A stretch of DNA of 64,000 nt from Octopus vulgaris (taxonomy: Eukaryota): assembly GCA_951406725.2 (NCBI GenBank), contig OX597815.1:64604001-64668000 (forward strand), read 5' to 3'. Positions 10,834-54,683 of the stretch are shown here, one piece after another. Made by a program: the position numbers and the translations under genes. The notes beneath the pieces were generated by a model. That model made no database searches, was not told where the DNA came from, and saw only the letters and a program-made list of their open reading frames with translations. Each line of letters opens with the position of its first letter. Position 1 is the stretch's first letter.

Positions 10834-13265
10834 GATAAGAAAGTTGGTTTGTGAAAGCACGTGGTTGAATATATAGAAAATAGTAAAAAGTGAAAAACTA
10901 CAGAAGGCTTAAAGGTTAAAAAATATATATATTTGCGTCAATATGTCTGAAGAATATTAAAAAAATTTTTCTTACAATGACATAGATTAGAAGAAAGACC
11001 GGTTTCGCGTTTAGCTTTTCAAATTTCGTGCGACGTAATGTTTATCTTGAACAGAGTTATCTTTATGTTTATGTTTAAAAGAGTTCTAAATAAGGGGAGG
11101 TAATGAGTGATTTCTTCCGGTGTAAGGGAGATAATCGCTTAAAATTTTTTTAACATTTTTTCCTTTCCCTTGGTGTGAATTTCTCTGTATCAGTATGTTG
11201 GCACGGTTAAGTCTGGGCTTGTACTTTTCGATGAAGAATGTTTCCTTGTTTAGTCTAATTTGTGTTGATGATCCGATAGCACATTGGTAAAATGGAAAGA
11301 TTAAAAATTGTGGTAGTAGTTGCTTTGCGCATTTCTCAATGTGCTCACTAAAAGGTATCATTCTGTATTCTGGGAATGCAATCTGTTGTCGATGCAGTGT
11401 GCATCTACGTCTGAGTGATAGTCCCGTGGATCCCACGTAGTCTTGGTGGCAGCCCGAGCATTTTATGACATAAATTATGTTTTCAGAGGCACAAGTAAAG
11501 TTAGATTTGATCTTGAATTTCTGTCCCTCTTTAAAGAGGAATTCTGATCCTTCTAGCAGGTTTGGACATGCTGCAGAAGGCAATACAGTTCTGGGCAATA
11601 GTTCTAGAGGCAATACAGTTCTGGCTGGACCAATTTCCGGAAGAAATACCAAAAAGGATCAGTAAAGAATTCATTACTAAATCAATTGAATTCATCCTAC
11701 ATAATAACCACTTAATGTTTGACAATACATTTTACCGTCAAAAATCCGGAATTGCTATGGGTACAAGGGCAGCACCAGTCATTGCGAACCTAACAATGGG
11801 CTACATGGAAATAATCATTTGCCAGGAATCTTTATCAATCTTTGGAAACCCCCTTTCTCAATACATAAAAGAGAATTGGAAACGATTCTTAGACGATTGT
11901 TTTATACTCTGGAATGAAAACACAGATAAACTGCTAAAATTTAAAAACCTATTGAACAGCATAAACCCAAATATACAGTTCACAATGGAATACAACCAAA
12001 AGGAGCTCCCGTTCTTGGATATACTAATTTAAAAAATTAACCTTAAAATAGAAACAGACATTTTTTACAAAGCCACAGACGCCAAACAATACCTTCTTTT
12101 AATTCATGCCACCCAAGACACACTAAAACAAACATCTCCTTCAACCTTGCAAGAAGGATATGCACAATAGTGTAAGAACAAAATACCAGGAACTTTAGAC
12201 TGCAAGAACTCAAAAACACCCTAATTGACAGACATTACCCAGCTCAACTCATAGAGGATGGGATCAGACGTGCAACAGAAATCAACATAGAAACTTTAAG
12301 AAAAGTTCAACACAACAACACACCTTCCCCGAAAATACTACCTTACATATCTACATACAACCCCAGAAACAAAGAAGCCTTCACCATCATCACCCAGAAT
12401 TTACCAATACTTCATGAGGACCCCAAATTAAAGGAAATTCTAAACATACACCAAATCATTAAAAGCTACAAACAACCTAAATCACTTAAAAAGATTCTCA
12501 CAAAGGCAAAATTGTTTTCTGAAATTACGGATGCAAAAGTAAAAAAATGTGGTAGATCGAACTGTGCAACATGTCCAAACCTGCTAGAAGGATCAGAATT
12601 CCTCTTTAAAGAGGGCCAGAAATTCAAGATCAAATCTAACTTTACTTGTACCTCTGAAAACATAATTTATGTCATAAAATGCTCGGGCTGCCACCAAGAC
12701 TACGTGGGATCCACAGGACTATCACTCAGACGTAGATGCACACTGCATCGACAACAGATTGCATTCCCAGAATACAGGATGATACCTTTTAGTGAGCACA
12801 TTGAGAAATGCGCAAAGCAACTACTACCACAATTTTTAATCTTTCCATTTTACCAATGTGCTATCGGATCATCAACACAAATTAGACTAAACAAGGAAAC
12901 ATTCTTCATTGAAAAGTACAAGCCCAGACTTAACCATGCCAACATACTGATACAGAGAAATTCACACCAAGGGAAAGGAAAAAAAAATTTTTAATTTTAA
13001 GCGATTATCTCCCTTACACCGGAAGAAATCACTCATTACCTCCCCTTATTTAGAACTCTTTTAAACATGAATATAAAGATAACTCTGTTCAAGATAAACA
13101 TTACGTCGCACGAAATTTGAAAAGCTAAACGCGAAACCGGTCTTTCTTCTAATCTATGTCATTGTAAGAAAAAAATTTTTTTATATTCTTTAGACATATT
13201 GACGCAAATATATATATTTTTTAACCTTTAAGCCTTCTGTAGTTTTTCACTTTTTACTATTTTCT
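10834..13265 (+). mobile_element. Penelope-like element (Neptune type), 5'-truncated, with an inverted copy of its 3' end upstream
   Basis: RT motifs QKSGIAMGT, RFLDD and LPFLD; CGRSNCATC linker; GIY-YIG NIIYVIKC..C...YVG. 10875-11575 is the reverse complement of about 12565-13265. Confidence 0.93.
11600..12994 (+). pseudogene. PLE RT plus GIY-YIG endonuclease, disrupted
   Basis: ORFs 11562-12032 and 12512-12994, with stops and frameshifts between them. Confidence 0.9.
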
Positions 13266-24311: not shown

Positions 24312-24318
<7 letters not shown>

Positions 24319-27300
24319 GGTCCCGGGTTGATTCGGGGTTAACCACAGTAAGTAAGGTACTCAATACATAGCAGAGTAAAATTAATTTATTATATAGAAG
24401 GAGCTTCTACAGGACTAGTACTGTTTCATTCAAGAGAAATCTTCAGGAAGCTATTTAACAAGAATTGTATTAGCATTTATACATTTAGGCCCTTGGTGGG
24501 ATAGTAATGTTCTTCAGGGAAGTGTCGAGGTCGATTCTTGTCAGCATTTTTCTTGGTGATGGTTATAAGGGCACTAGGGTGTGCTAAGATATGTAGGTCC
24601 CGGGTTGATTCGGGGTTAACCACAGTAAGTAAGGTACTCAATACATAGCAGAGTAAAATTAATTTATTATATAGAAGGAGCTTCTACAGGACTAGTACTG
24701 TTTCATTCAAGAGAAATCTTCAGGAAGCTATTTAACAAGAATTGTATTAGCATTTATACATTTAGGCCCTTGGTGGGATAGTAATGTTCTTCAGGGAAGT
24801 GTCGAGGTCGATTCTTGTCAGCATTTTTCTTGGTGATGGTTATAAGGGCACTAGGGTGTGCTAAGATATGTAGGTCCCGGGTTGATTCGGGGTTAACCAC
24901 AGTAAGTAAGGTACTCAATACATAGCAGAGTAAAATTAATTTATTATATAGAAGGAGCTTCTACAGGACTAGTACTGTTTCATTCAAGAGAAATCTTCAG
25001 GAAGCTATTTAACAAGAATTGTATTAGCATTTATACATTTAGGCCCTTGGTGGGATAGTAATGTTCTTCAGGGAAGTGTCGAGGTCGATTCTTGTCAGCA
25101 TTTTTCTTGGTGATGGTTATAAGGGCACTAGGGTGTGCTAAGATATGTAGGTCCCGGGTTGATTCGGGGTTAACCACAGTAAGTAAGGTACTCAATACAT
25201 AGCAGAGTAAAATTAATTTATTATATAGAAGGAGCTTCTACAGGACTAGTACTGTTTCATTCAAGAGAAATCTTCAGGAAGCTATTTAACAAGAATTGTA
25301 TTAGCATTTATACATTTAGGCCCTTGGTGGGATAGTAATGTTCTTCAGGGAAGTGTCGAGGTCGATTCTTGTCAGCATTTTTCTTGGTGATGGTTATAAG
25401 GGCACTAGGGTGTGCTAAGATATGTAGGTCCCGGGTTGATTCGGGGTTAACCACAGTAAGTAAGGTACTCAATACATAGCAGAGTAAAATTAATTTATTA
25501 TATAGAAGGAGCTTCTACAGGACTAGTACTGTTTCATTCAAGAGAAATCTTCAGGAAGCTATTTAACAAGAATTGTATTAGCATTTATACATTTAGGCCC
25601 TTGGTGGGATAGTAATGTTCTTCAGGGAAGTGTCGAGGTCGATTCTTGTCAGCATTTTTCTTGGTGATGGTTATAAGGGCACTAGGGTGTGCTAAGATAT
25701 GTAGGTCCCGGGTTGATTCGGGGTTAACCACAGTAAGTAAGGTACTCAATACATAGCAGAGTAAAATTAATTTATTATATAGAAGGAGCTTCTACAGGAC
25801 TAGTACTGTTTCATTCAAGAGAAATCTTCAGGAAGCTATTTAACAAGAATTGTATTAGCATTTATACATTTAGGCCCTTGGTGGGATAGTAATGTTCTTC
25901 AGGAAGTGTCAAGGTCGATTCTTGTCAGCATTTTTCTTGGTGATGGTTATAAGGGCACTAGGGTGTGCTAAGATATGTAGGTCCCGGGTTGATTCGGGGT
26001 TAACCACATGCTATGTATTGAGTACCTTACTTACTGTGGTTAACCCCGAATCAACCCGGGACCTACATATCTTAGCACACCCTAGTGCCCTTATAACCAT
26101 CACCAAGAAAAATGCTGACAAGAATCGACCTCGACACTTCCCTGAAGAACATTACTATCCCACCAAGGGCCTAAATGTATAAATGCTAATACAATTCTTG
26201 TTAAATAGCTTCCTGAAGATTTCTCTTGAATGAAACAGTACTAGTCCTGTAGAAGCTCCTTCTATATAATAAATTAATTTTACTCTGCTATGTATTGAGT
26301 ACCTTACTTACTGTGGTTAACCCCGAATCAACCCGGGACCTACATATCTTAGCACACCCTAGTGCCCTTATAACCATCACCAAGAAAAATGCTGACAAGA
26401 ATCGACCTCGACACTTCCCTGAAGAACATTACTATCCCACCAAGGGCCTAAATGTATAAATGCTAATACAATTCTTGTTAAATAGCTTCCTGAAGATTTC
26501 TCTTGAATGAAACAGTACTAGTCCTGTAGAAGCTCCTTCTATATAATAAATTAATTTTACTCTGCTATGTATTGAGTACCTTACTTACTGTGGTTAACCC
26601 CGAATCAACCCGGGACCTACATATCTTAGCACACCCTAGTGCCCTTATAACCATCACCAAGAAAAATGCTGACAAGAATCGACCTCGACACTTCCCTGAA
26701 GAACATTACTATCCCACCAAGGGCCTAAATGTATAAATGCTAATACAATTCTTGTTAAATAGCTTCCTGAAGATTTCTCTTGAATGAAACAGTACTAGTC
26801 CTGTAGAAGCTCCTTCTATATAATAAATTAATTTTACTCTGCTATGTATTGAGTACCTTACTTACTGTGGTTAACCCCGAATCAACCCAGGACCTACATA
26901 TCTTAGCACACCCTAGTGCCCTTATAACCATCACCAAGAAAAATGCTGACAAGAATCGACCTCGACACTTCCCTGAAGAACATTACTATCCCACCAAGGG
27001 CCTAAATGTATAAATGCTAATACAATTCTTGTTAAATAGCTTCCTGAAGATTTCTCTTGAATGAAACAGTACTAGTCCTGTAGAAGCTCCTTCTATATAA
27101 TAAATTAATTTTACTCTGCTATGTATTGAGTACCTTACTTACTGTGGTTAACCCCGAATCAACCCGGGACCTACATATCTTAGCACACCCTAGTGCCCTT
27201 ATAACCATCACCAAGAAAATGCTGACAAGAATCGACCTCGACACTTCCCTGAAGAACATTACTATCCCACCAAGGGCCTAAATGTATAAATGCTAATACA

Positions 27301-28206
27301 ATTCTTGTTAAATAGCTTCCTGAAGATTTCTCTTGAATGAAACAGTACTAGTCCTGTAGAAGCTCCTTCTATATAATAAATTAATTTTACTCTGCTATGT
27401 ATTGAGTACCTTACTTACTGTGGTTAACCCCGAATCAACCCGGGACCTACATATCTTAGCACACCCTAGTGCCCTTATAACCATCACCAAGAAAAATGCT
27501 GACAAGAATCGACCTCGACACTTCCCTGAAGAACATTACTATCCCACCAAGGGCCTAAATGTATAAATGCTAATACAATTCTTGTTAAATAGCTTCCTGA
27601 AGATTTCTCTTGAATGAAACAGTACTAGTCCTGTAGAAGCTCCTTCTATATAATAAATTAATTTTACTCTGCTATGTATTGAGTACCTTACTTACTGTGG
27701 TTAACCCCGAATCAACCCGGGACCTACATATCTTAGCACACCCTAGTGCCCTTATAACCATCACCAAGAAAAATGCTGACAAGAATCGACCTCGACACTT
27801 CCCTGAAGAACATTACTATCCCACCAAGGGCCTAAATGTATAAATGCTAATACAATTCTTGTTAAATAGCTTCCTGAAGATTTCTCTTGAATGAAACAGT
27901 ACTAGTCCTGTAGAAGCTCCTTCTATATAATAAATTAATTTTACTCTGCTATGTATTGAGTACCTTACTTACTGTGGTTAACCCCGAATCAACCCGGGAC
28001 CTACATATCTTAGCACACCCTAGTGCCCTTATAACCATCACCAAGAAAAATGCTGACAAGAATCGACCTCGACACTTCCCTGAAGAACATTACTATCCCA
28101 CCAAGGGCCTAAATGTATAAATGCTAATACAATTCTTGTTAAATAGCTTCCTGAAGATTTCTCTTGAATGAAACAGTACTAGTCCTGTAGAAGCTCCTTC
28201 TATATA

Positions 28207-28212
<6 letters not shown>
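24312..28212. mobile_element. Head-to-head tandem array of a 277-bp HHR unit (non-LTR retrozyme-like)
   Basis: Left-arm unit starts 24316, 24593, 24870, 25147, 25424, 25701, 25977; inversion at 26008/26009; right-arm starts 26009, 26286 ... 27947; near-identical units; (TA)n flanks. Confidence 0.95.
26207..26257 (+). ncRNA. Type I hammerhead ribozyme (one of 14 copies: 8 on +, 6 on -)
   Basis: AGCTTC-CTGAAGA-tTTCtcttGAAt-GAAA-CAG-tactagtc-CTG-TA^GAAGCT; predicted cut after 26251. Confidence 0.88.
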
Positions 28213-37799: not shown

Positions 37800-38299
37800 G
37801 CACACATATACACATAAATATACACACACGTACAAAAACACTCACATACATAAACATGTACATACATTGGGGACACACCCATACAAGAAGGAAGAGAAAA
37901 AAACGTGCAAAAAAACATACAAACCTGCATGCAAATGTATACATGCACACGCACACATACATATATATATATGTATATATATATATACACATACGCATAC
38001 CCATATGCATACATGTACACACATATCAAATAAGAACAAACACACACATATACATTTACATATATACACACATATATACACATACATACACATGCATATA
38101 TATATATACATATATATACACACATATATATATACATACGTGTGTACTTGTACACATACAAACACATTCATGCATATATACATACATATATATAACTAAG
38201 AACACAAGTGCATAGACAGTCGCACTGGCACACATACATGCACACATCGAGAAGATAAGCATACACTAAATACCACAGAAAGAAAGGGGGGAGGTAATC

Positions 38300-39115
38300 A
38301 ATAAACCTATTTAAGGTTAAAGAAGAGGAATTTGGACATGTGCTTACAAGAAAAAATCTTTCATCTCTCGAATTTAAGACAGAACCGTTCATTTTCATAA
38401 TTATATACGACTCCTCAAGGCAAAGCGGACAATTTCTATTTCTAATCCTATAAGAGGGGGTAGAGGAAACAACATTCCAGGAAATTGAGAAATTTATGTT
38501 ATCTCTTTTAAGTTGCCATACCTTTTTGGATAAACTAGTACTATTTTCTTTCCGACGATCATTAAAAGATGATTTATGATTATTCAAACGTAATTTAATA
38601 GAACCTAGAGATATCATGTGTAGTAATATAATGGAACCTAGAGAGATCATATCTAGTAATAGTGGCTTTATATACAACATTTTTCATTTTACAATTACCT
38701 TTAACTTCACAAGTGTTAGGATTTCTACAGCTACAATTCTTACTAATATCAGACGCACTGTTGCTATGTGTATATGTATTGGTAGAGATAGAGTTTGCGT
38801 TGGTATGGGGATCGTTGGTAGAGGGTATAGGGCTATTTGAGTAGAAGGGGTTAGTATTAGTAGTAGGTTTAGTTTTCAATTGTTAAAGGAAGAAATAATC
38901 CTAAATAAGTTCGGAGAAACAGAAAAGCCAAATCTTATCATTCTGTTATTGAATATCTCAGCATACCTAGATTTACTAAAATTAGATTTAATAATAGAAC
39001 GAATAGACTTTATAAAGTCAGACTTCAAATATTTAGCAAATGGGAATATAATCGAAATTATGTTATTATTGTGTTTCTTGTTGGTAGGTGGTTTTTATTA
39101 TACGGGTCACCCATT
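38300..39115 (-). pseudogene. PLE-type GIY-YIG endonuclease (Naiad-like Cys-rich form); no RT seen
   Basis: IFN..MIRFGFS..PN linker, CSCRNPNTCEVKGNCKMKNVVYKA, RLNNHKSSF...TSLSKKVWQLK, CPLCLEE, LNSRDE. Confidence 0.8.
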
Positions 39116-40801: not shown

Positions 40802-42520
40802 AGATCTTTATTATTGAATCCTTAAAATTTATACTTCAGAACAATTATTTCCTATTTGATGACACATACTATCGTCAGTAATGTGGAATTGCGATGGGAA
40901 CGAAAGGAGCTCCTGTTCTTGCGAACCTAATAATGTGTTATTTTGAATTCACCTCATATGAAGTATCACTTCAGAAATATGGTTACCCATTTTACCTCTA
41001 CATAAGAGAAAATTGGAAGTGATACCTGGATGACTGCTTTATCATCTGGAAGGAGAACATCGACAAACTTTTGGATTTCAAAACAACACTAAATAACATA
41101 AATAGTAACATTCAATTCACAATGGAATATAACAAAGAACAACTACCATTTTTAGACATCATGATAAAAAAAAGTTAACAATGAAATCATAACTGATATT
41201 TATTATAAACCAACTGATTCAAAACAATATCTTCTTTTTAACTCATGCCACCCGAAACACATAAAAATAAACATCCCTTTTAACTTAGCAAAAAGGATCT
41301 GCACAATAGTGTCTGATAGAACAACTCGGGACCTTCGTCTTCAAGACATCAAAACAACACTTATTGAAAGACAATATCCACCCTCTCTTATCGACGTGGG
41401 AATTAAACGTGCCAAACAATTAGACACAAAAACACTAAGAACAAAAAACATAGCACCACACCTCAAACCAAAACATTACTTTTTATATCAACACACAACC
41501 CCAGAAACAGTGAGGCATTCAACACTATTGTGCAAACTCTCCTTTTACTAACTAGTGATCCAAAAATGAACGACATCCTGAAAACACACAAACTCATCAA
41601 ATGCAAAAAACAAGACAAATCGCTAAAGAGACTACTAACAAATGCGAAGCTTTACAAAACAACCACGAAACCAACGGTTCAAAAATGTGGACGCCCAAAT
41701 TGTGGAACCTGCCCCAACCTGCTTGAAGGCTCGGATTTCCTTTTCAAACAAGGACAGAGGTTCAAAATTAAAACTAGTTTCACCTGTGCCTCTGAGAACC
41801 TAATCTATGTAATAACCTGCTCGGGTTGCGGTCATCAGTACATTGGACAAACGAGTATGACCTTGAGAAAGAGAATCACTCTACATATGGAGCAAATCCG
41901 CTTCCCGCAATACAGACAAATTTCTCTCAGTGAACACATAGAAAAATGTGCAGGTAACATCAAACCAAATTTCACAGTCTTCCCTTTCTACCAGTGCAAA
42001 GACGCAATCTCTCAACTAGAACGTTTAAATAAAGAAACTGTTTTCATTGAAAAATACAAAACACGTCTTAGTATGCACGCATAACCAACTTTTATATTTT
42101 TACATATTCCATTCATGATTACATCACTGTACATAAATCCCCTACTAAACAAGGTTTTTAAAACCTGTCTCTGTTCTGTACACATATTTAATCCCCACCC
42201 ATTACCGAAAGCTGAACTGGTATCTCCCTTACACACAACAATAACAATAATAACAACCAATTACCTCCCTTTATTTATCTACTTGGGAAGTCATTCACTC
42301 GTGAATTTCATCACACACAACATGGACCAAATTTCTTCTTAAGAAAAAATATATATTCAAATAAATAAAACATAATATCATGAATAACGATAGCGAAACC
42401 GGTCGATATATTAAAAATTATATTAAAACTGTGTATGTGTGCGTATTTTCCTATTTTAATTTCTTACATACATTACAACTCACCACGTGGGGATAATCGA
42501 AATTTCTCTTTTCTGTTACT
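40797..42520 (+). mobile_element. Penelope-like element (Neptune type), 5'-truncated
   Basis: GIAMGT, YLDDCF and LPFLD RT motifs; CGRPNCGTC plus NLIYVITC..C..QYIG (41530-42084); (TA)n flanks. Confidence 0.92.
42375..42409 (+). ncRNA. Minimal HHR in the PLE 3' UTR, A3-U8 variant
   Basis: ATATC-ATGAATA-acgatagc-GAAA-CCGG-TC^GATAT. Confidence 0.65.
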
Positions 42521-44039: not shown

Positions 44040-47000
44040 TAAATGCACGAAATCTCAATGTGACATACGCAAGACGTTGAAACCAGCACCAGGAACCCTG
44101 GAGAAACACACCAGACACACCGATTACACATCAAGTACGTAAACTGAATAATTACTTATGTATGCAACTGTCTGTACATCCATGTGCACATGCTGATATT
44201 TACAAGCAACATATATAACACCTACACGACACACACGTACATACAGAAAATAAAAGAAAAACACGTGTCACGAGCGATGCCGAACAAAACAAAAACAACC
44301 GAATATAAAAAGGAGCAAATTAGTCACTCAGTTTAAAACATCACTAAACAGTCATGCTCGGAATCATGACAGCGGTGTCATGTCAAAAAGTCAACCCTGA
44401 CTCTCCTATTGTCACCGTCGATGCTTTAATGACAAGCCAAAATTCATGCTGAATCTGTCATCACCCTGGACAAGGACCGCGTTACCCAGTGGAGAACCAG
44501 ACTGGGTTCGAAAAGTCAGCTGCTGGAACAAACTCTTTAAAAAAATCAACTACCAGGTGACCAGAACCAGGCTAACCCTAGACCTGTAGTAACACCACCA
44601 AAGACACCACCTGAAACAAAATGCAGGAAATGGACAGGAGAGGATTACAGGGATGTGCTGAAAGCTCTCTATACAGCCCAACAAAAGTCAAACAATAATT
44701 TCATTGTACAAACGTACACGTCATGGAGAAACTTAGTAGGCAACAAAGTATGCAGATATATAGACGCAAATAAATTAAGTAATGTACGTAAAGACATCAT
44801 TAAGAACAAAAGGTTAACTAACGCTGAAATTAACCAAATTAGGACACAATTATCTCATGGTAGACCAAAGAAAACAGCAACAATGCAGATGAAATAGGCA
44901 ACGGATGCACAGAACACAGTGTACGAACAGTACATCCCAACGAGGAAGCTGAAGAAAGAATAGCGATGAAAAGATATGCGGAAAAAGAGGAGGAAGTAGA
45001 CCTACCTCAAGAACACCAGAATAGATATGACAGAATTTGAGGTGAATAATAAAGAGATCATGTATTATTTGTCGATGAACTTGCTTAGAGGAGTAAATGT
45101 TAAGACGAAACAAGCTAGAAAAATCAAACGAATATATAAAATCAAAGATTTTATAAACCTCCCTGCAATGAAGGACAACAGTGAAACAACGAATACAACT
45201 AAAAACTCAACAGTTCAGAAAATATGACAAAAGAAGGTATTCAAGACGGAAGCAAAAACATTTTATAGGAAAAATGGCAAAAGTAAGATAGAAGCAAAGG
45301 AGCCACCTAAGACTGAGGAAATGCAAGAGTTCTGAAAGAAGATATGGAGCAACAAAAAAGAACATAATGCTGAAGCTCACTTGAGAGAACGTGAGAAAGT
45401 GAGGCAGGATGAAGTTGAGCAGAAATATGAGGCAATGAGAGTAGAAGAGCTAAGATATGTTCTTAGAAAGTCTCACAAATGGAAAACTCCAGGACTGGAC
45501 CGGGTTCCTAACTTCTGGCTGAATTGTTTGACAGAAGTACACCAACATTTTGCTACATCCTTGACTGATGTCATCCAGAACCCAGAATAAATACCTGCCT
45601 GACTGATCGAAACAACAACATACCTTCTACCAAAAACTGGAGATATGAAAAATTCAAAGAACTACCAACAAATAACATGTCTCAACACCACCTACAAGAT
45701 TATCACATCGATACTAATAGAAAGAATATACACTTTCCTTGAACAGGATTCTATCCTTCCGCAAGGTCAAAAAGGTTGTAAAAGGAATTCTTATGGATGC
45801 AAAGACCAATTACTTTTAAATAAAATGATTGTAGAGAATTGCCGGAGCAAAAAGAAGAACCTGGATGTGGCATGGATAGACTACAGGAAAGCGTTTGATC
45901 ATGTCCTATACAAGGCCCTTTTCTTTTTTCTTTTTTGTGTGTTCTCTGTTTTATTCTGGCTTATATATCTTGCATTAGATGAGGTAAGTCCTTTATTTTC
46001 ATGTTTGATCATGTCCTACACAAGGCCCTTGAGATATATAAGATTTCTCTTGTCATCTCCAAATTCTTATAAGGTAGCATGGCCAAGTGGAATACACATT
46101 TCCCTCTACACTATATTAATGGGAAGAGCCAATCTAGCAATATCAACATCGAACGAGGCATCTTTCAAGGTGACTACCTCTCCCCATTACTCTTTTGCAT
46201 GGCACTGATACCACCCTGAGTAACACCAGCAATGAGCTCAAAATGTATAATATTATAGTAAATCGTGTTTTATATGGACGATCTGAAGCTGTTTGCTAAA
46301 AATGACGAAAAGCTACTAGTTGTTCTTTGTTCTTTGTTCTTAACAGCATTTACCCGGGGTGGGTTGAGCTGGCTTCATTCATCCTCAATACTGCATCTCT
46401 CACAAACGCCGACCAGACCTGGCGATTTGAGGCTAACGACCGCGTCATTTCCAACAATTCTTTATTCCAGCGGCGAACGCCGTAGACATGGTTGGGTTCC
46501 AGATCAGCCTTGATTGCCATCAGCCAAGTTTTCCGGTGTCCACCACATCGCTTTCGCCAACCCTGAAGGGGAGCTGGGGCAATTGCTTCGTAGATGAATT
46601 CTCCTGGTTGACGACGGAGAGCATGACCCAGCCAACGCTGGATGACTTGTCGGAGGGAGGTGATTCTGCACTGGTGTTGCACCGAATTGTTGGAGATAAA
46701 CGAAGGATGCGGCGTAGACAGAGGTGATCGAAGGATTCTAGTCGCTTAATATCTTCCACCCTCATTGGCCATGACTCGCTGCCGTAAAGGAGAATCGTTC
46801 GCACTAGTGCTTGGTAGATCCGTACTTTGGTGGTGTGTCGGATCTCAGATCTTGACCAGAGTCGTGCACTGAGTCGGTTGAAGGCTTGGCGAGCGAGGTC
46901 GATTCGTGTTTTAATGTCAGCCTCACCTTGACCTGTAGCTGTAATGATGGCGCCAAGGTATTTGAAACTCTCAACCTGATCAAGAATATCACCATTGAGG

Positions 47001-50000
47001 ACAATGGGTGTTTTGTCTGGTGGGGAAGATTCGGCTGTGAGGATTTTGGTCTTCGAGGCATTGACTTTCATACCAATCTGCGATACAACACGCTGGAGCT
47101 CATTGATAGCAAACTGGACGTCAGCAAATGTTTCGCCAAGTATCGCTATGTCATCTGCGTAGTCTAGATCCTTGACGGAAAAGTTGTGACCAACAGTGAT
47201 ACCGGGGAACTCCCTTAATGCATTTGTGGTGATCCAGTCGATGGCGTAATTGAAAAGAGTTGGCGAAAGAACACATCCTTGCCGAACGCCAGACCGTATT
47301 TCGAAGGGTTCCGACACTTCGCCATACACGCGTACGCGGGGTCTTGCTGAGCGGTAATAAGTTTTGATAATATTGAGAAGTTTAGGTGGGATACCATCTG
47401 CCTGCATGACCTTCCAGAGGGTGTCACGATCGACGGAGTCGAATGCAGCAGCAAAATCAACAAAGCAGATGACTGTCTTTTGCTGAAAGCACCAACGGTG
47501 TTCAAGGATTCGTGTTAGGGTGAAGATTTTATCGGTGCAGCCTCGATTTCGACGGAAACCACACTGGTTTGGTCTTGTTCTAGAGTCACGTTCTGATTGG
47601 AATCGTCTCAGAAGAATAGATGCAAATATTTTGGCAGAAACGTCAATCAGACTGATGCCACGGTAGTTGCTGCAGCAGCGTTTATCGCCTTTCTTAAAGA
47701 AAGGTACCAGTGCTGCGTCGCTCCAGTCTTGGGAGAGGGTTTCCGTATCCCAAACCCGGGTCATAACTTGATGAATCGCGGGCCCAAGTATATTTGCACT
47801 ATGCTTGAAGATCTCAGCAGGAATGTTATCTTCGCCGGCAGCTTTGTTATTTTTGAGCTTTCTGATAACAACAAGGACCTCTTCAAGCGTAGGGGGAGCT
47901 GTTTGGAAGTTATACAAGGTTGGGGTCGCGTCGATCGCAGGAGCAGATAAGGGGGGCTGATGGTCATGGTTCAGCAGATTGGCGAAATGGTCTCTCCAGC
48001 GGATGATGCGCTCAGTGAGATTGGTGATGTGATCGCCATTCTGGTCCAAAATAGTTTCGTTACCACTCCAGCCTGTCTTTCTGCTCGATCGAAGGAGGCT
48101 GTAGAGTCCCCATTAGATGCGGCGCATTCCATGTCTTCAGCCACCGTCCTCCAGAATTTATTTCGATCAGCGCGGGCAGAACGGGCAGCTTCACGGCGCA
48201 GTTGTCTGAAGGTATCGGATTGGTTGCATCGAGCTTGTTTCGCTTTTTCAGCAATTTCGATTCTTCGGCCTGAGATCCAATCTTTGTCTTTTCGCTTAGT
48301 AGTGCCGAGTGTTGTGGACATCACGGATTGAAGATTGTGTTTGACCGTTTGCCAGACTTCATCTGAGTAAGCAGATTGAGGGACTTCGAGCCCGTTAAAC
48401 CGATTTGTTAATTCAATACGGAATAAATGTTCGGTCTGGTTACTTTTTAGCTTCGAGATATCGTATCTTAAAGGCTTAGAGCAAGACTTGACGGCCTTGA
48501 GATGAAGACGTAGTTTTGCCCGTCTTAATACATGATCGGAACCATGTTCGCTGCCGGTTTCTGCGCCTCTGAACATTCGACAATCAAGGACGTTCTACGA
48601 TCAGCAGCTTCTAACGAGAAAATGGTCAATCTGGTTTGCTGCGACACCGTCATTGGAGTACCATGTAAGAAGATGTCGCCGTGGATGTTGAAAGCGCGTG
48701 CTAGAAACAGTAAGATGATTTGCAACAGCGAAATTGTCAAGTCTTTCACCATCGGCGCATTGATTGCCAATCGCAAACCGTCCCAGTATGTGGTCGTTAG
48801 TGGTGTTACTTGGTCCTCTGCGGGCATTCCAATCGCCTGCAACGATTAGAATGTCACTTGCGGGTATGCGACCAACAACTGCCTGTAAAGCATCATAGAA
48901 GGAGTCCTTATCTTCATCAGAAGCGGTGAGAGTGGGAGCGTAGACAACAACGGCACTGATGTTGATAGCTGAACATCTGAGGCGGATACGGGCTAGATGG
49001 GGGGGAGATAGGTTCCCAGGCAAGGAATGACGCATTGGCGCGATCGCTGAGAGCGAAGGCAACTCCATGAAGGCCAGAGTTATCAGTTGGTCCACTGTGG
49101 TAGAGATGGTATGATGCGTCGTGTTGGGGTACTTTGATTCTGCGATAACCAGAATCAGGAAGTCTAACTTCAGAGAGGCATGCAATATCGATATTATATT
49201 TGGAGAGAGAGTGCATCGTTAGTGCCTTTGTTTCTTCATGCATCAGGGATCTGACGTTCCAAAAGCCAAAGAAATGCGTTCTTCCATGTCGCATTAGCAT
49301 CCAAGTTCGCTAATTTAACACTCGCCTCACTGGGACAGCTAGCGCGTCGGCTCCCGCGGACGCCGTAGTAGCGTTTGTCATTGAAGAAGGTGCGATATGC
49401 ATGAGGAATATTTGAAGGATCTTGGGAATAGGAGGTTTGCTAGCGGTCTCCAGCCGCAAGTATATCCCTGTTGGGAGAACGTCTTGTTTGCCGTAGATTT
49501 TCCACAGACGCAGGGACAGGACGCGTTGAAGCCGCCGGTTGCCGGATCAGACGCTTCTGTTCACCAGAGCCCCGTTAACCGGGTGCGGCCCCGATACCGC
49601 TGGGTGTCAGAACAATCCGCCTTGGGTGACCCTACCAGAAACCGAAGTCTCCGATGGCATAGCTCTGACACTCCCGTTTCACCCCCTTACCACGATGAGG
49701 TGATACATAATTACACATTTATTGGATGGCCGTTGACTCTCAAGAGTTCCTCCTCCCTTTGACGGGTTTTGTTTTTCATCTCGCAGGGTGTCCAATAAAC
49801 ACCCTCCTCACCAGGCAATCTTGGTGGGGTTGCCGGTTTAGTCGCCGACGGCCCGACCATGCAACAGGTTGTACTGGGTTACATGTTACCAGTAGCACTC
49901 GAAGGGCTGTTAACAACTGTTAAAGAGCACAGCAACGATATCGGGATGGATTTTGGCCTTGATAAGTGTGCTAAAGCAACTTTTGTAAGAGCAAGCTCAA

Positions 50001-51810: not shown

Positions 51811-52297
51811 TACATATATATATATATATCTTTCGTCTTCTATATGATTCAGTCCAAAGGCTCTGTGTGTGTGTGTGGTGATAGCCACAGCCTTTGAACT
51901 GAAACATATAGAAGACGAAAAAATTATATATATATATATATAAACTAATTTTCTTTCTGTTCCCTTCCTTCACATATACATGTCATAGCCCCTAATTCGC
52001 CTAAGTTATAGAGCACTCGCAGTGAAGATGCACTCAGGAGAGATTCAGATGCTCCTTGTCAAGTATATAAAAGTCTAACTAGACTACATATACATACATA
52101 ATACATACATACAAGCACACAAATAAACATGCATGTATACACACACACGCACACATACGCACACACACACACGCACACACACACACACACCTATACGTTT
52201 ACATCTATCTATCAATATATACATATATATATATATAAATATATGTATATATTCATACATATATATATGCATGTATATATCTATATATATATATATA

Positions 52298-52384
<87 letters not shown>

Positions 52385-52389
<5 letters not shown>

Positions 52390-54090
52390 AATCAAGGAAC
52401 GGCCATAATAGGCCATTCACCCACTAGAAATAACAGCCAAAGCTTCAACCGCAAAATAACATTAATTCCGCAAACCAGGAGAAAATTAAAAAACATTTAC
52501 CCTGTAATTTCTTATACGATGCACCGTTTCATCTACTGTTTAATGGTAAACTAACCTGATTAAAATAAATCAAGCCAATCTTCCTTAGATTCGTCAGTAA
52601 GAAATAGCCAGATCGGAACAGATATTTTCACGAGGCATTTCTGTCCCTGCCTCGGCAATATCTGACCTAAAATTTTCAAATCATCGCACTCGCGCCAAAT
52701 TTGGCGCGAGTGCGATGATTTGAAAATTTTAGGTCAGATATTGCCGAGGCAGGGACAGAAATGCCCTCGTGAAAATATCTGTTCCGATCTGGCTATTTCT
52801 GACGAATCTAAGAGGCCTATGGAAGATTGGCTTGATTTATTTTAATCAGGTTAGTTTACCATTAAACAGTAGATGAAACGGTGCATCGTATAAGAAATTA
52901 CAGGGTAAATGTTTTTAATTTTCTTCTGGTTTGCGGAATTAATGTTATTTTGCGGTTAGCTTTGGCTGTTATTTCTAGTGGGTGAATGGCCTATTATGGC
53001 CGTTCCTGATTGTGATGTTGAACGTATAAATGGTCTATGACTATTTAATTTTTTTCCCACTAGGCCGCTGGTGGCAAAAAAATTCTACAAAATCTTTTTG
53101 CCACCCTATATTGATTAATTATGAATTTTCTGGTTGATTCCGTAATGGAATCGGCGGCTTATATTTATTTGCTGCCGATAAATTTGGCGCGAGTGCGATG
53201 ATTTGAAAATTTTAGGTCAGATATTGCCGAGGCAGGGACAGAAATGCCTCGTGAAAATATCTGTTCCGATCTGGCTATTTCTTACTGACGAATCTAAGGG
53301 CCTATGGAAGATTGGCTTGATTTATTTTAATCAGGTTAGTTTACCATTAAACAGTAGATGAAACGGTGCATCGTATAAGAAATTACAGGGTAAATGTTTT
53401 TTAATTTTCTCCTGGTTTGCGGAATTAATGTTATTTTGCGGTTGAAGCTTTGGCTGTTATTTCTAGTGGGTGAATGGCCTATTATGGCCGTTCCTTGATT
53501 GTGATGTTGAACGTATAAATGATCTATGACTATTTAAGTTTTTCCCACTAGGCAGCTGGTGGCAAAAAAATTCTACAAAATCTTTTTGCCACCCTATATT
53601 GATTAATTATGAATTTTCTGGTTGATTCCGTAATGGAATCGGCGGCTTATATTTATTTGCTGCCGATAAATTTGGCGCGAGTGCGATGATTTGAAAATTT
53701 TAGGTCAGATATTGCCGAGGCAGGGACAGAAATGCCTCGTGAAAATATCTGTTCCGATCTGGCTATTTCTTACTGACGAATCTAAGGGCCTATGGAAGAT
53801 TGGCTTGATTTATTTTAATCAGGTTAGTTTACCATTAAACAGTAGATGAAACGGTGCATCGTATAAGAAATTACAGGGTAAATGTTTTTTAATTTTCTCC
53901 TGGTTTGCGGAATTAATGTTATTTTGCGGTTGAAACTTTGGCTGTTATTTCTAGTGGGTGAATGGCCTATTATGGCCGTTCCTTGATTGTGATGTTGAAC
54001 GTATAAATGGTCTATGACTATTTAATTTTTTCCCACTAGGCCGCTGGTGGCAAAAAAATTCTACAAAATCTTTTTGCCACCCTATATTGA

Positions 54091-54098
<8 letters not shown>
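52385..54098 (+). mobile_element. 488-bp HHR tandem array with a 315-bp 5' inverted arm
   Basis: Palindrome centre 52699/52700; unit starts 52697, 53180, 53668; (TA)n flanks. Confidence 0.93.
53277..53383 (+). ncRNA. Type I HHR with extended stem II (intact copy also at 53765-53871)
   Basis: ATTTCTTA-CTGACGA-ATCTA[58 nt]TAGAT-GAAA-CGGTGCATCG-TA^TAAGAAAT; 8-bp stem I. Confidence 0.88.
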
Positions 54099-54158
<60 letters not shown>

Positions 54159-54683
54159 GTGTGTGTGTGTGTGTGTATATATATATGTATGTATATATAT
54201 ATAATATGCACACGTTGTGTATACATTATAGGTCCACGTGTGTGTATATTCATGCAGATATGATTGTAATCACGTACATGTGTTTGTACTTTAAATATCC
54301 TATCTAATTGCGTGTGCGTGCGTGATTTCAACTATGTGTTTGAATGAATACACACGCGCGCACACATCCATACACCCATGCACACATGCATACATACACA
54401 TACATACATATATATATATTTGTATGTATATATACGTATATATATGTATGTTTAAATTTATACCTATATATTCAATGTTGTTAATCTTACCGTATATGTG
54501 AGTATATGTATATGGTAGAGAGAGGGAGAGCAAGAAGTTCAGTTAGAAAGCAAAAGAGAGATCGTGTGTGTGAATACATATGCTTACGTGTATGTGTGTA
54601 TGTGTGTTCATTTTGAGTGTGTGTGTGCGCGCGCGTGTGTGTGTATGTGTGTGTGAGTGTGTTTGCGTGTGTTTCTGTTTCAG

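What the first reader, a model, noticed from the sequence alone, without database searches (positions are those of the whole stretch)
52385..54098. Second retrozyme-like array: 488-bp highly structured unit whose HHR has a long stem II
Seen: an HHR core split by a 58-nt insertion that itself forms a roughly 18-bp hairpin with six G-U pairs, which points to selection on RNA structure. 8-bp stem I and quasi-palindromic stem III (ACGGTGCATCGT). Other hairpins: gaatggcc/ggccgttc, ggtggcaaaaa/tttttgccacc, atcggcggc/gctgccgat. The sequence differs from the 277-bp unit but the layout is the same: inverted arm, tandem copies, (TA)n target. Inference: a viroid-like circRNA family that standard HHR descriptors with a short stem II would miss.
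Basis: partly seen in the sequence, partly recalled or inferred. Interest (0 to 1): 0.88.

Follow-up and report, generated by a model that had tools for sequence, protein, structure and literature searches.

The report
Long-armed hammerhead retrozyme, Penelope-type insertion
This is one young copy of a large family of protein-free jumping repeats whose 488-base unit carries a predicted self-cutting RNA with an unusually long arm, and whose back-to-back insertions always start at two different fixed points, a footprint that likely records a Penelope-type enzyme copying one small RNA circle from both ends of a DNA cut.

Summary
Observation confirmed. 52385-54098 is a 318-bp inverted arm plus 2.9 head-to-tail 488-bp units inside a (TA)n tract; two units carry an intact type I hammerhead (HHR) with a 68-nt stem II. 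The family is young and dispersed (466 and 822 exact end-plus-TA matches). The HHR is under structural selection: core conserved, N7 and H17 vary only as allowed, stems I, II-base and III covary, and a ~72% identical sister family keeps the long stem II. All 91 of 91 two-armed loci with both ends at standard positions have one end at unit 326 and one at 431, never the same twice; both arms share one haplotype and run through the cleavage site. This is the Penelope-like-element (PLE) tail/inverted-arm footprint. Best reading: a non-LTR retrozyme mobilised by a PLE enzyme, likely by rolling-circle copying of one monomer from both nicked strands. Cleavage, circularity, expression and the partner PLE are unshown. 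Known kind, new variant. The scan noted this family and a similar reading several times before, at other loci of this genome.

The parts
52215..52386 (.). left (TA)n target tract
52385..52702 (-). inverted arm, unit positions 1-326; its outward 3' end is start site A (unit 326)
   Evidence: (97.5% to the unit)
52507..52605 (-). hammerhead copy in the inverted arm, 8 nt missing from stem II
52697..52702 (.). inversion junction at the 6-nt palindrome AAATTT (centre 52699/52700), shared by both arms
52697..53179 (+). direct copy 1; 4 nt of stem I lost, hammerhead broken
53180..53667 (+). direct copy 2, full 488-bp unit (reference for unit numbering)
53277..53383 (+). type I hammerhead: stem I 53277-53284/53376-53383, core 53285-53291, stem II 53292-53359 (5-bp base, 7x7 internal loop, 18-bp distal helix), GAAA 53360-53363, palindromic stem III 53363-53374, predicted cleavage after A53375
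53273..53276 (+). GGCU 5' of stem I, putative pseudoknot partner of 53299-53302 in the internal loop of stem II (weakly supported)
53376..53863 (+). predicted 488-nt monomer between the two intact cleavage sites
   Evidence: release and circularisation inferred
53668..54098 (+). direct copy 3, unit positions 1-431; its outward 3' end is start site B (unit 431)
53765..53871 (+). second intact hammerhead, predicted cleavage after A53863
53994..54098 (+). [quoted passage not shown]
54096..54207 (.). right (TA)n/(TG)n target tract

Best explanation
This is a young insertion of a dispersed non-coding repeat family whose unit carries a conserved, covarying type I hammerhead and whose insertions show the Penelope-type footprint; it is likely a non-LTR retrozyme whose tandem transcript would self-cleave (probably as a ribozyme dimer) to a 488-nt monomer, would be ligated to a circle, and would be copied back into (TA)n by a Penelope-like RT/GIY-YIG enzyme acting on both nicked strands. 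Shown: tandem plus inverted layout, (TA)n target, two fixed outward ends 105 nt apart with one used on each arm, one haplotype per insertion, arms that run through the cleavage site and over many units, selection on the ribozyme. Inferred: cleavage, dimer action through the palindromic stem III, circularisation, priming of one strand at unit 326 and the other at unit 431 on the same RNA, rolling-circle extension, joining of the two cDNA ends by short microhomology or a few added bases, and the identity of the helper PLE. The long stem II is best read as an ordinary 5-bp stem II whose loop is an internal loop capped by an extra helix; that loop may make the stem I/II contact as a short pseudoknot.
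For: Ends: 50 of 50 and 41 of 41 two-armed loci with both ends at standard positions are A+B; none of the 101 two-armed loci is A/A or B/B (10 have a truncated or rearranged end). 134 of 139 outward ends abut (TA)4+. Sister family 11 of 11; the resident autonomous PLE family 4 of 4 loci with both outward ends visible, ends 32-38 nt apart; the 277-bp array has different ends too. PMC11167929 showed in vitro that a PLE protein nicks and extends both strands and starts at two internal RNA sites that delimit the tail. One template: mismatch at 69 polymorphic sites 0.9% within an arm, 0.8% between the two arms, 21.7% between loci. 126 of 180 arms cross the cleavage site and only 3 stop within 5 nt of it; both arms exceed one unit in 26 of 90 loci. 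56 different fixed haplotypes among 82 multi-segment loci, while unit-to-unit differences recur between loci only at chance level (42 vs 38.7+/-5.0), as expected if each insertion passes through a single unit. Ribozyme: among 54 distinct HHR variants from 103 loci one has a change in the 12 conserved core positions; N7 takes all four bases and H17 only A or C in 106 loci; 5 of 36 pairs change on both sides, 19 cells against 2.7 in shuffles, 0 of 500; sister family replaces the stem II base by three other fully paired versions and keeps a palindromic stem III and a 64-74-nt stem II. Stem III self-duplex -17.5 kcal/mol against hairpin -0.2. Intact RT+GIY-YIG PLE ORFs of about 800 aa are abundant in this genome and use the same target.
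Against: No cleavage, circle or expression was shown. No PLE with sequence similarity to the unit was found in the 3' regions of the PLE families sampled, nor attached to 60 loci picked by their ends, so the helper is unnamed. In PMC11167929 hammerhead mutants did not affect insertion in vitro, uncleaved RNA was the main substrate, and both strands used the same start sites, unlike the strict A+B rule here. The tail (105 nt) is longer than the 30-40 nt described. The active HHR fold is 3.9 kcal/mol above the predicted ground state of the circle and 2.0 above the local one. The distal 18-bp helix shows no two-sided change in the main family. Related copies can beat the shuffle control without structure (tool caveat), and about a tenth of loci were sampled, part of them chosen for similarity to this copy. 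The pseudoknot is weak: covariation score 24 of 500 shuffles, one two-sided change.
Confidence: 0.62

Rival explanations
1. Same family and same PLE helper, but the template is an uncleaved linear multimeric transcript of a parent array, primed twice; the hammerhead serves another step (freeing or stabilising RNA) and circles, if any, are by-products.
For: [quoted passage not shown] Arrays of up to 15 units exist as possible parents. Arms crossing the cleavage site fit this too.
Against: Daughters could not exceed the parent in length or purge its unit differences, yet 56 fixed haplotypes occur in 82 multi-segment loci with no excess of shared within-array differences; 5' ends of B arms do not pile up at site A as simple twin priming on one linear molecule predicts (8 of 82 within 305-335).
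Confidence: 0.25
2. Template is the cleaved linear monomer, and tandem units arise by repeated template jumping of the RT from its 5' end to the 3' end of the same or a sister molecule.
For: Would also give one haplotype per insertion; PLE-type RTs make tandem products (general knowledge, recalled).
Against: No pile-up of arm ends at the cleavage site (3 of 180) and no scars there: the sequence across the site is intact in the aligned variants.
Confidence: 0.08
3. A DNA-level repeat (satellite or foldback/MITE-type element) with a chance or relic hammerhead-like motif.
For: Some arrays show later local turnover, with variants shared by neighbouring units (L101-L103); hairpin-rich sequence folds well on both strands.
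Against: The two ends are different internal points of the unit, not terminal inverted repeats; junction positions differ from locus to locus; the core varies only where hammerheads tolerate it and stems covary across two families.
Confidence: 0.03
4. A true viroid-like RNA replicon (RNA-to-RNA copying) whose genomic copies are occasional fossils.
For: Highly structured unit with a hammerhead; many coexisting haplotypes. PMC7229834 mentions RNA-RNA replication as one possible source of heterogeneity in mussel circles.
Against: A hammerhead is found on one strand of the unit only; over a thousand young DNA loci with intact ribozymes suffice as source.
Confidence: 0.02

Closest known systems
Metazoan non-LTR retrozymes (Cervera and de la Pena 2020, PMC7229834: passages, parts 3 and 4 of 6 read; Li, Clavereau and Pollet 2026, 10.64898/2026.07.22.740005: parts 1-3 of 5 read)
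   Same: Non-coding, low-GC (36.7%) tandem units, one type I hammerhead per unit, short palindromic stem III, dispersed loci from monomers to multimers, PLEs present in the genome and proposed as helpers.
   Different: Unit 488 nt (170-400 in PMC7229834, within the 51-972 of Li et al.); stem II 68 nt with an internal loop and extra helix; insertions with an inverted arm, two fixed ends and a (TA)n target are not described in the parts read; no pLTR homology found, unlike 21 of 57 Xenopus families; cleavage and circles untested here.
Penelope-like elements, Neptune/Naiad/Poseidon insertion anatomy (Craig et al. 2021, PMC8557442: passages; Frangieh et al. 2024, PMC11167929: parts 1-2 of 4)
   Same: Partial tandems, inverted 5'-truncated copy, a tail at one end only, microsatellite target, hammerhead in the repeat.
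   Different: No RT/endonuclease ORF; tail 105 nt rather than 30-40; the two start sites are used strictly one per arm, whereas the in vitro study saw no strand difference.
PLE minimal hammerheads (Cervera and de la Pena 2014, PMC4209133: passages) and 'HHR_half_core' cases in Naiads (PMC8557442)
   Same: Dimer-type architecture with palindromic stem III; core halves far apart (35-50 nt in eight Naiad cases).
   Different: Helix II there is at most 6-8 bp; here the halves are 68 nt apart and are shown by covariation to close a full stem II.
Pseudoknotted hammerheads (Perreault et al. 2011, PMC3088659: passages)
   Same: Stem I/II contact by a short base-paired pseudoknot in about 40% of examples; U4C core variant known to work in vivo (found in the sister family).
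   Different: Here the partner would be an internal loop of a long stem II, and support is weak.

Membership tests
non-LTR retrozyme | type I hammerhead in consecutive tandem units | tested here: met
   two consecutive intact motifs in the window; 311 copies in 103 loci
non-LTR retrozyme | hammerhead core conserved and stems covarying | tested here: met
non-LTR retrozyme | short low-GC unit, dimers to multimers, dispersed | tested here: met
   488 nt, 36.7% GC, 1-15 units per arm, many contigs; longer than the 170-400 nt of PMC7229834, inside the range of Li et al.
non-LTR retrozyme | no protein coding, no LTR/PBS/PPT layout | tested here: met
   no stop-to-stop frame of 120 aa within the direct copies; tandem units end in (TA)n without terminal repeats
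non-LTR retrozyme | self-cleavage in vitro | not testable with these tools
   Li et al. saw cleavage in only 1 of 9 predicted elements, so prediction is not proof
non-LTR retrozyme | accumulates as circular RNA | tested here: inconclusive
   only assembled contigs of runs guessed to be RNA were available; tandem DNA copies also mimic a circular junction
Penelope-like element (autonomous) | RT plus GIY-YIG ORF | tested here: not met
   none in the element or joined to sampled loci
PLE-mobilised non-autonomous element | tandem plus inverted arm, one-sided tail, microsatellite target | tested here: met
   same anatomy in the resident PLE
PLE-mobilised non-autonomous element | sequence similarity to the pLTR or 3' end of an autonomous PLE | tested here: not met
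   no match to the PLE families sampled; other families in the genome were not examined
viroid-like replicon | RNA-to-RNA replication, ribozymes often in both polarities | tested here: inconclusive
   hammerhead on one strand of the unit only; replication not testable

The most novel reading that the evidence does not exclude
Penelope-like enzymes integrate by asymmetric double priming: one RNP engages both nicked strands at two different, fixed RNA sites, and on a circular retrozyme RNA both RTs roll round the same circle, writing back-to-back concatemers. This family, whose hammerhead has a new architecture (internal-loop stem II with a pseudoknot and an appended helix), would be the first genomic record of that reaction and a ready substrate to reconstitute it.
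Probability: 0.45. Interest if true: 0.75.

Novelty: new variant of a known kind. Interest (0 to 1): 0.56.

Why it matters
How animal retrozymes get back into the genome has been proposed (PLE help, circular template) but not shown, and how PLEs make their inverted arms and one-sided tails is open. A strict one-start-site-per-arm rule over 91 loci, with both arms from one template, is a precise prediction for the existing in vitro PLE assay. The long stem II shows that descriptor searches capped at short helices undercount hammerheads and offers an explanation to test for the 'half-core' motifs in Naiad elements.

Tried and rejected
No RNA holder listed: the run search listed no holder on record as RNA; this says nothing on expression. 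Contigs of four runs guessed to be RNA cover the unit, with A>G excess in two (23 of 60 places in X1, 15 of 45 in X8) but not in the other two (10 of 57, 10 of 54); without a silent-DNA control or matched DNA this is no evidence of transcription or editing, and that control was not obtained. RNA editing fixed in genomic copies: suggested by a loose count (13 of 67 template-level changes A>G) but not kept under a stricter filter on 131 loci (2 of 16, p = 0.22): rejected as unsupported. Rfam: only microRNA-type chance hits on the 64-kb window among the 150 of 281 rows shown and no hammerhead on the unit. Helper search: window PLEs, a 781-aa family and an ~800-aa family show no similarity to the unit; one protein query failed on a stop codon. 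L059 shares the 16-mer but is a different old repeat and was dropped from counts. The middle stem II helix was indexed one base off and those rows were discarded (correct). The main-family pattern failed and was redone; alignment A2 was out of register in stem II and not used for pair counts. Simple twin priming with non-overlapping arms was rejected. Literature searches for retrozyme+cephalopod, octopus+hammerhead ribozyme, twin priming+Penelope, long/extended stem II type I hammerheads and retrozyme+rolling circle+inverted+Penelope listed no paper describing this family or the A+B rule; the library lacks most subscription papers, and supplements of the papers read were not opened (Supplementary File S1 of PMC8557442 may bear on long-spacer motifs).

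Full report
What is there. The element spans 52385-54098 between two (TA)n tracts. With window 53180 as unit position 1, it is an inverted arm of positions 1-326 followed by direct copies 1-488, 1-488 and 1-431; the arms meet at a 6-nt palindrome. Two direct copies and the arm carry a type I hammerhead layout: 8-bp stem I, canonical core, a 68-nt stem II, a near-palindromic stem III and a GUA site.

The family. A DNA search of the 2.8-Gb genome gave 1225 candidates, 40 scored; the stem III 16-mer has 1017 exact matches against 1 for the reversed control; the two end-plus-TA patterns have 466 and 822 matches against 5 and 1. I examined 82 loci chosen by similarity or by the 16-mer (one, L059, is another repeat and was dropped) and 60 chosen by one end. 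Loci differ from the majority by 0-8.6%, median 2.6%, in clear subfamilies. A sister family about 72% identical turned up by chance and has 1701 candidates. Earlier notes call the host a cephalopod; I did not test this.

The ribozyme is under selection. Regions were cut by coordinates, not by motif: 54 distinct variants from 103 loci, of which one alters a conserved core base; in the first 81 loci no locus haplotype did (P = 0.016 against base-matched sites). N7 is C, G, U or A in 43, 26, 24 and 13 of 106 loci and H17 is A in 89 and C in 17. On the named structure 98.9% of cells pair and 5 of 36 pairs change on both sides: three in stem I, one at the stem II base, one at the centre of the stem III palindrome (0 of 500 shuffles for cells, 1 of 500 for pairs; slid controls 32-44% paired). 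The distal helix varies on one side only. The sister family (23 loci) has a U4C core, three other fully paired versions of the stem II base, a perfect stem III palindrome in 21 of 23 and a stem II of 64-74 nt with the same base/internal loop/distal helix plan. So the long stem II is an old, kept feature, not a recent insertion. Stem III is far more stable as a duplex between two copies than as a hairpin, which fits the dimer mechanism described in PMC4209133 and PMC7229834. A GGC just 5' of stem I and a GCC in the internal loop are kept in both families and could form the stem I/II contact as a pseudoknot of the kind in PMC3088659; covariation for it is weak.

The insertion footprint. Outward 3' ends fall at two positions, A (about 326) and B (about 431), and 134 of 139 abut (TA)n. 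Of 101 two-armed loci, 91 have both ends at standard positions and all 91 are A+B; the other 10 have a truncated or rearranged end and none is A/A or B/B. Either arm can be the long one (median 416 and 476 nt), both exceed one unit in 26 of 90 loci, and 126 of 180 arms pass the cleavage site with no pile-up there. Junctions sit at many positions, with 1-10-nt overlaps in 50 of 98, short insertions in 37 and blunt joins in 8. Both arms and all units of a locus carry one haplotype; 9 private variants span both arms in 8 of 78 eligible loci. The same rule holds in the sister family (11 of 11; 26 loci examined), in the 277-bp array of this window and in an abundant autonomous PLE family, one broken copy of which lies at window 11086-12994 (4 of 4 loci with both ends visible), whose intact copies encode RT and a weakly scoring GIY-YIG domain in about 810 aa. 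PMC8557442 describes inverted copies, a one-sided 30-40-bp tail and microsatellite targets as PLE hallmarks; PMC11167929 showed that the tail is the stretch between two internal start sites and that both DNA strands are cut and extended.

Mechanism. Most likely a read-through transcript of a tandem array self-cleaves through paired hammerheads, the monomer is ligated (RtcB did this in vitro for other retrozymes, PMC7229834), a PLE protein nicks both strands of a (TA)n tract, one 3' end primes at site A and the other at site B on the same RNA, both RTs go round for a variable number of turns, and the two cDNA ends are joined head to head. The footprint, single template and ribozyme selection are shown; every RNA-level step is inferred. 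The circle is favoured over a linear multimer because each insertion behaves as if it had passed through one unit (56 fixed haplotypes in 82 loci, no excess of shared within-array differences), but young parent arrays are nearly uniform anyway and only about a tenth of loci were seen, so the linear template stays a real rival, backed by the in vitro finding that the hammerhead is not needed for insertion.

What is missing. No helper PLE with similar sequence was found. Expression is unresolved: only contigs of runs guessed to be RNA could be laid, without a silent-DNA control. Editing fixed in genomic copies was not supported.

Standing. It works like, and meets the testable features of, a non-LTR retrozyme; it is not an autonomous PLE and nothing shows viroid-type replication. 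New are the hammerhead architecture and the strict A+B rule with a single template, which my searches did not find in print. I had reached the retrozyme, PLE and A+B reading before opening the scan's notes; one search then showed that the scan had reported this family (485-495-nt units) and similar readings at other loci of this genome, which is not independent support. A word look-up for the long stem II/pseudoknot reading and a look-up by sequence returned nothing. Papers seen: 10.64898/2026.07.22.740005 parts 1-3 of 5; PMC11167929 parts 1-2 of 4; PMC7229834 passages and parts 3-4 of 6; PMC8557442, PMC4209133, PMC3088659 and PMC13725137 passages only; no supplements.

Noticed in passing
L250:17-506 (G000:C8:10460016) and L268-L297: Sister family about 72% identical with a U4C hammerhead core, 64-74-nt stem II and the same two ends; 1701 candidates.
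   Followed up: yes
window 24312-28212: 277-bp array: its two outward ends are also different unit positions (62 and 254); a copy of this family shares a (TA)n tract with the 488-bp element at L068.
   Followed up: partly
window 11086-12994 and L071-L100, L135-L140: Very abundant young PLE (21819 candidates; intact frames of about 810 aa) with a Cys-rich linker before the endonuclease, inverted arm, 32-38-nt tail, (TA)n target and a minimal hammerhead with the U3:A8 core variant (L139:6288-6325). Assignment to the Neptune clade is from recall, not tested.
   Followed up: partly
L247-L249; L243-L246: Two further PLE families with long open frames (781 aa; about 800 aa); my scan found no hammerhead in the stretches fetched.
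   Followed up: partly
L059:2960-3300: Old degenerate tandem of about 165 bp with the same stem III 16-mer and a short spacer, perhaps a relic short-stem-II relative; 93 candidates, matches cover only its middle.
   Followed up: partly
window 53193-53200 with 53369-53376: In the predicted circle this segment pairs with the 3' strand of stem III and would block the ribozyme, as in plant retrozymes and viroids; cost of the active fold 3.9 kcal/mol.
   Followed up: partly
window 53493-53505 and 53597-53610: Both start sites follow a stable hairpin and share UUGAUU 6-8 nt upstream, a candidate recognition signal.
   Followed up: no
L101-L103: Long arrays show variants shared by non-adjacent units, pointing to local turnover after insertion or to assembly mixing.
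   Followed up: no
window 46520-49309: Broken RTE-like non-LTR retrotransposon (endonuclease and RT fragments) on the minus strand; further PLE fragments at 38168-38683 and 41168-42084 and a mariner-like fragment at 1966-2415 (labels from recall).
   Followed up: no
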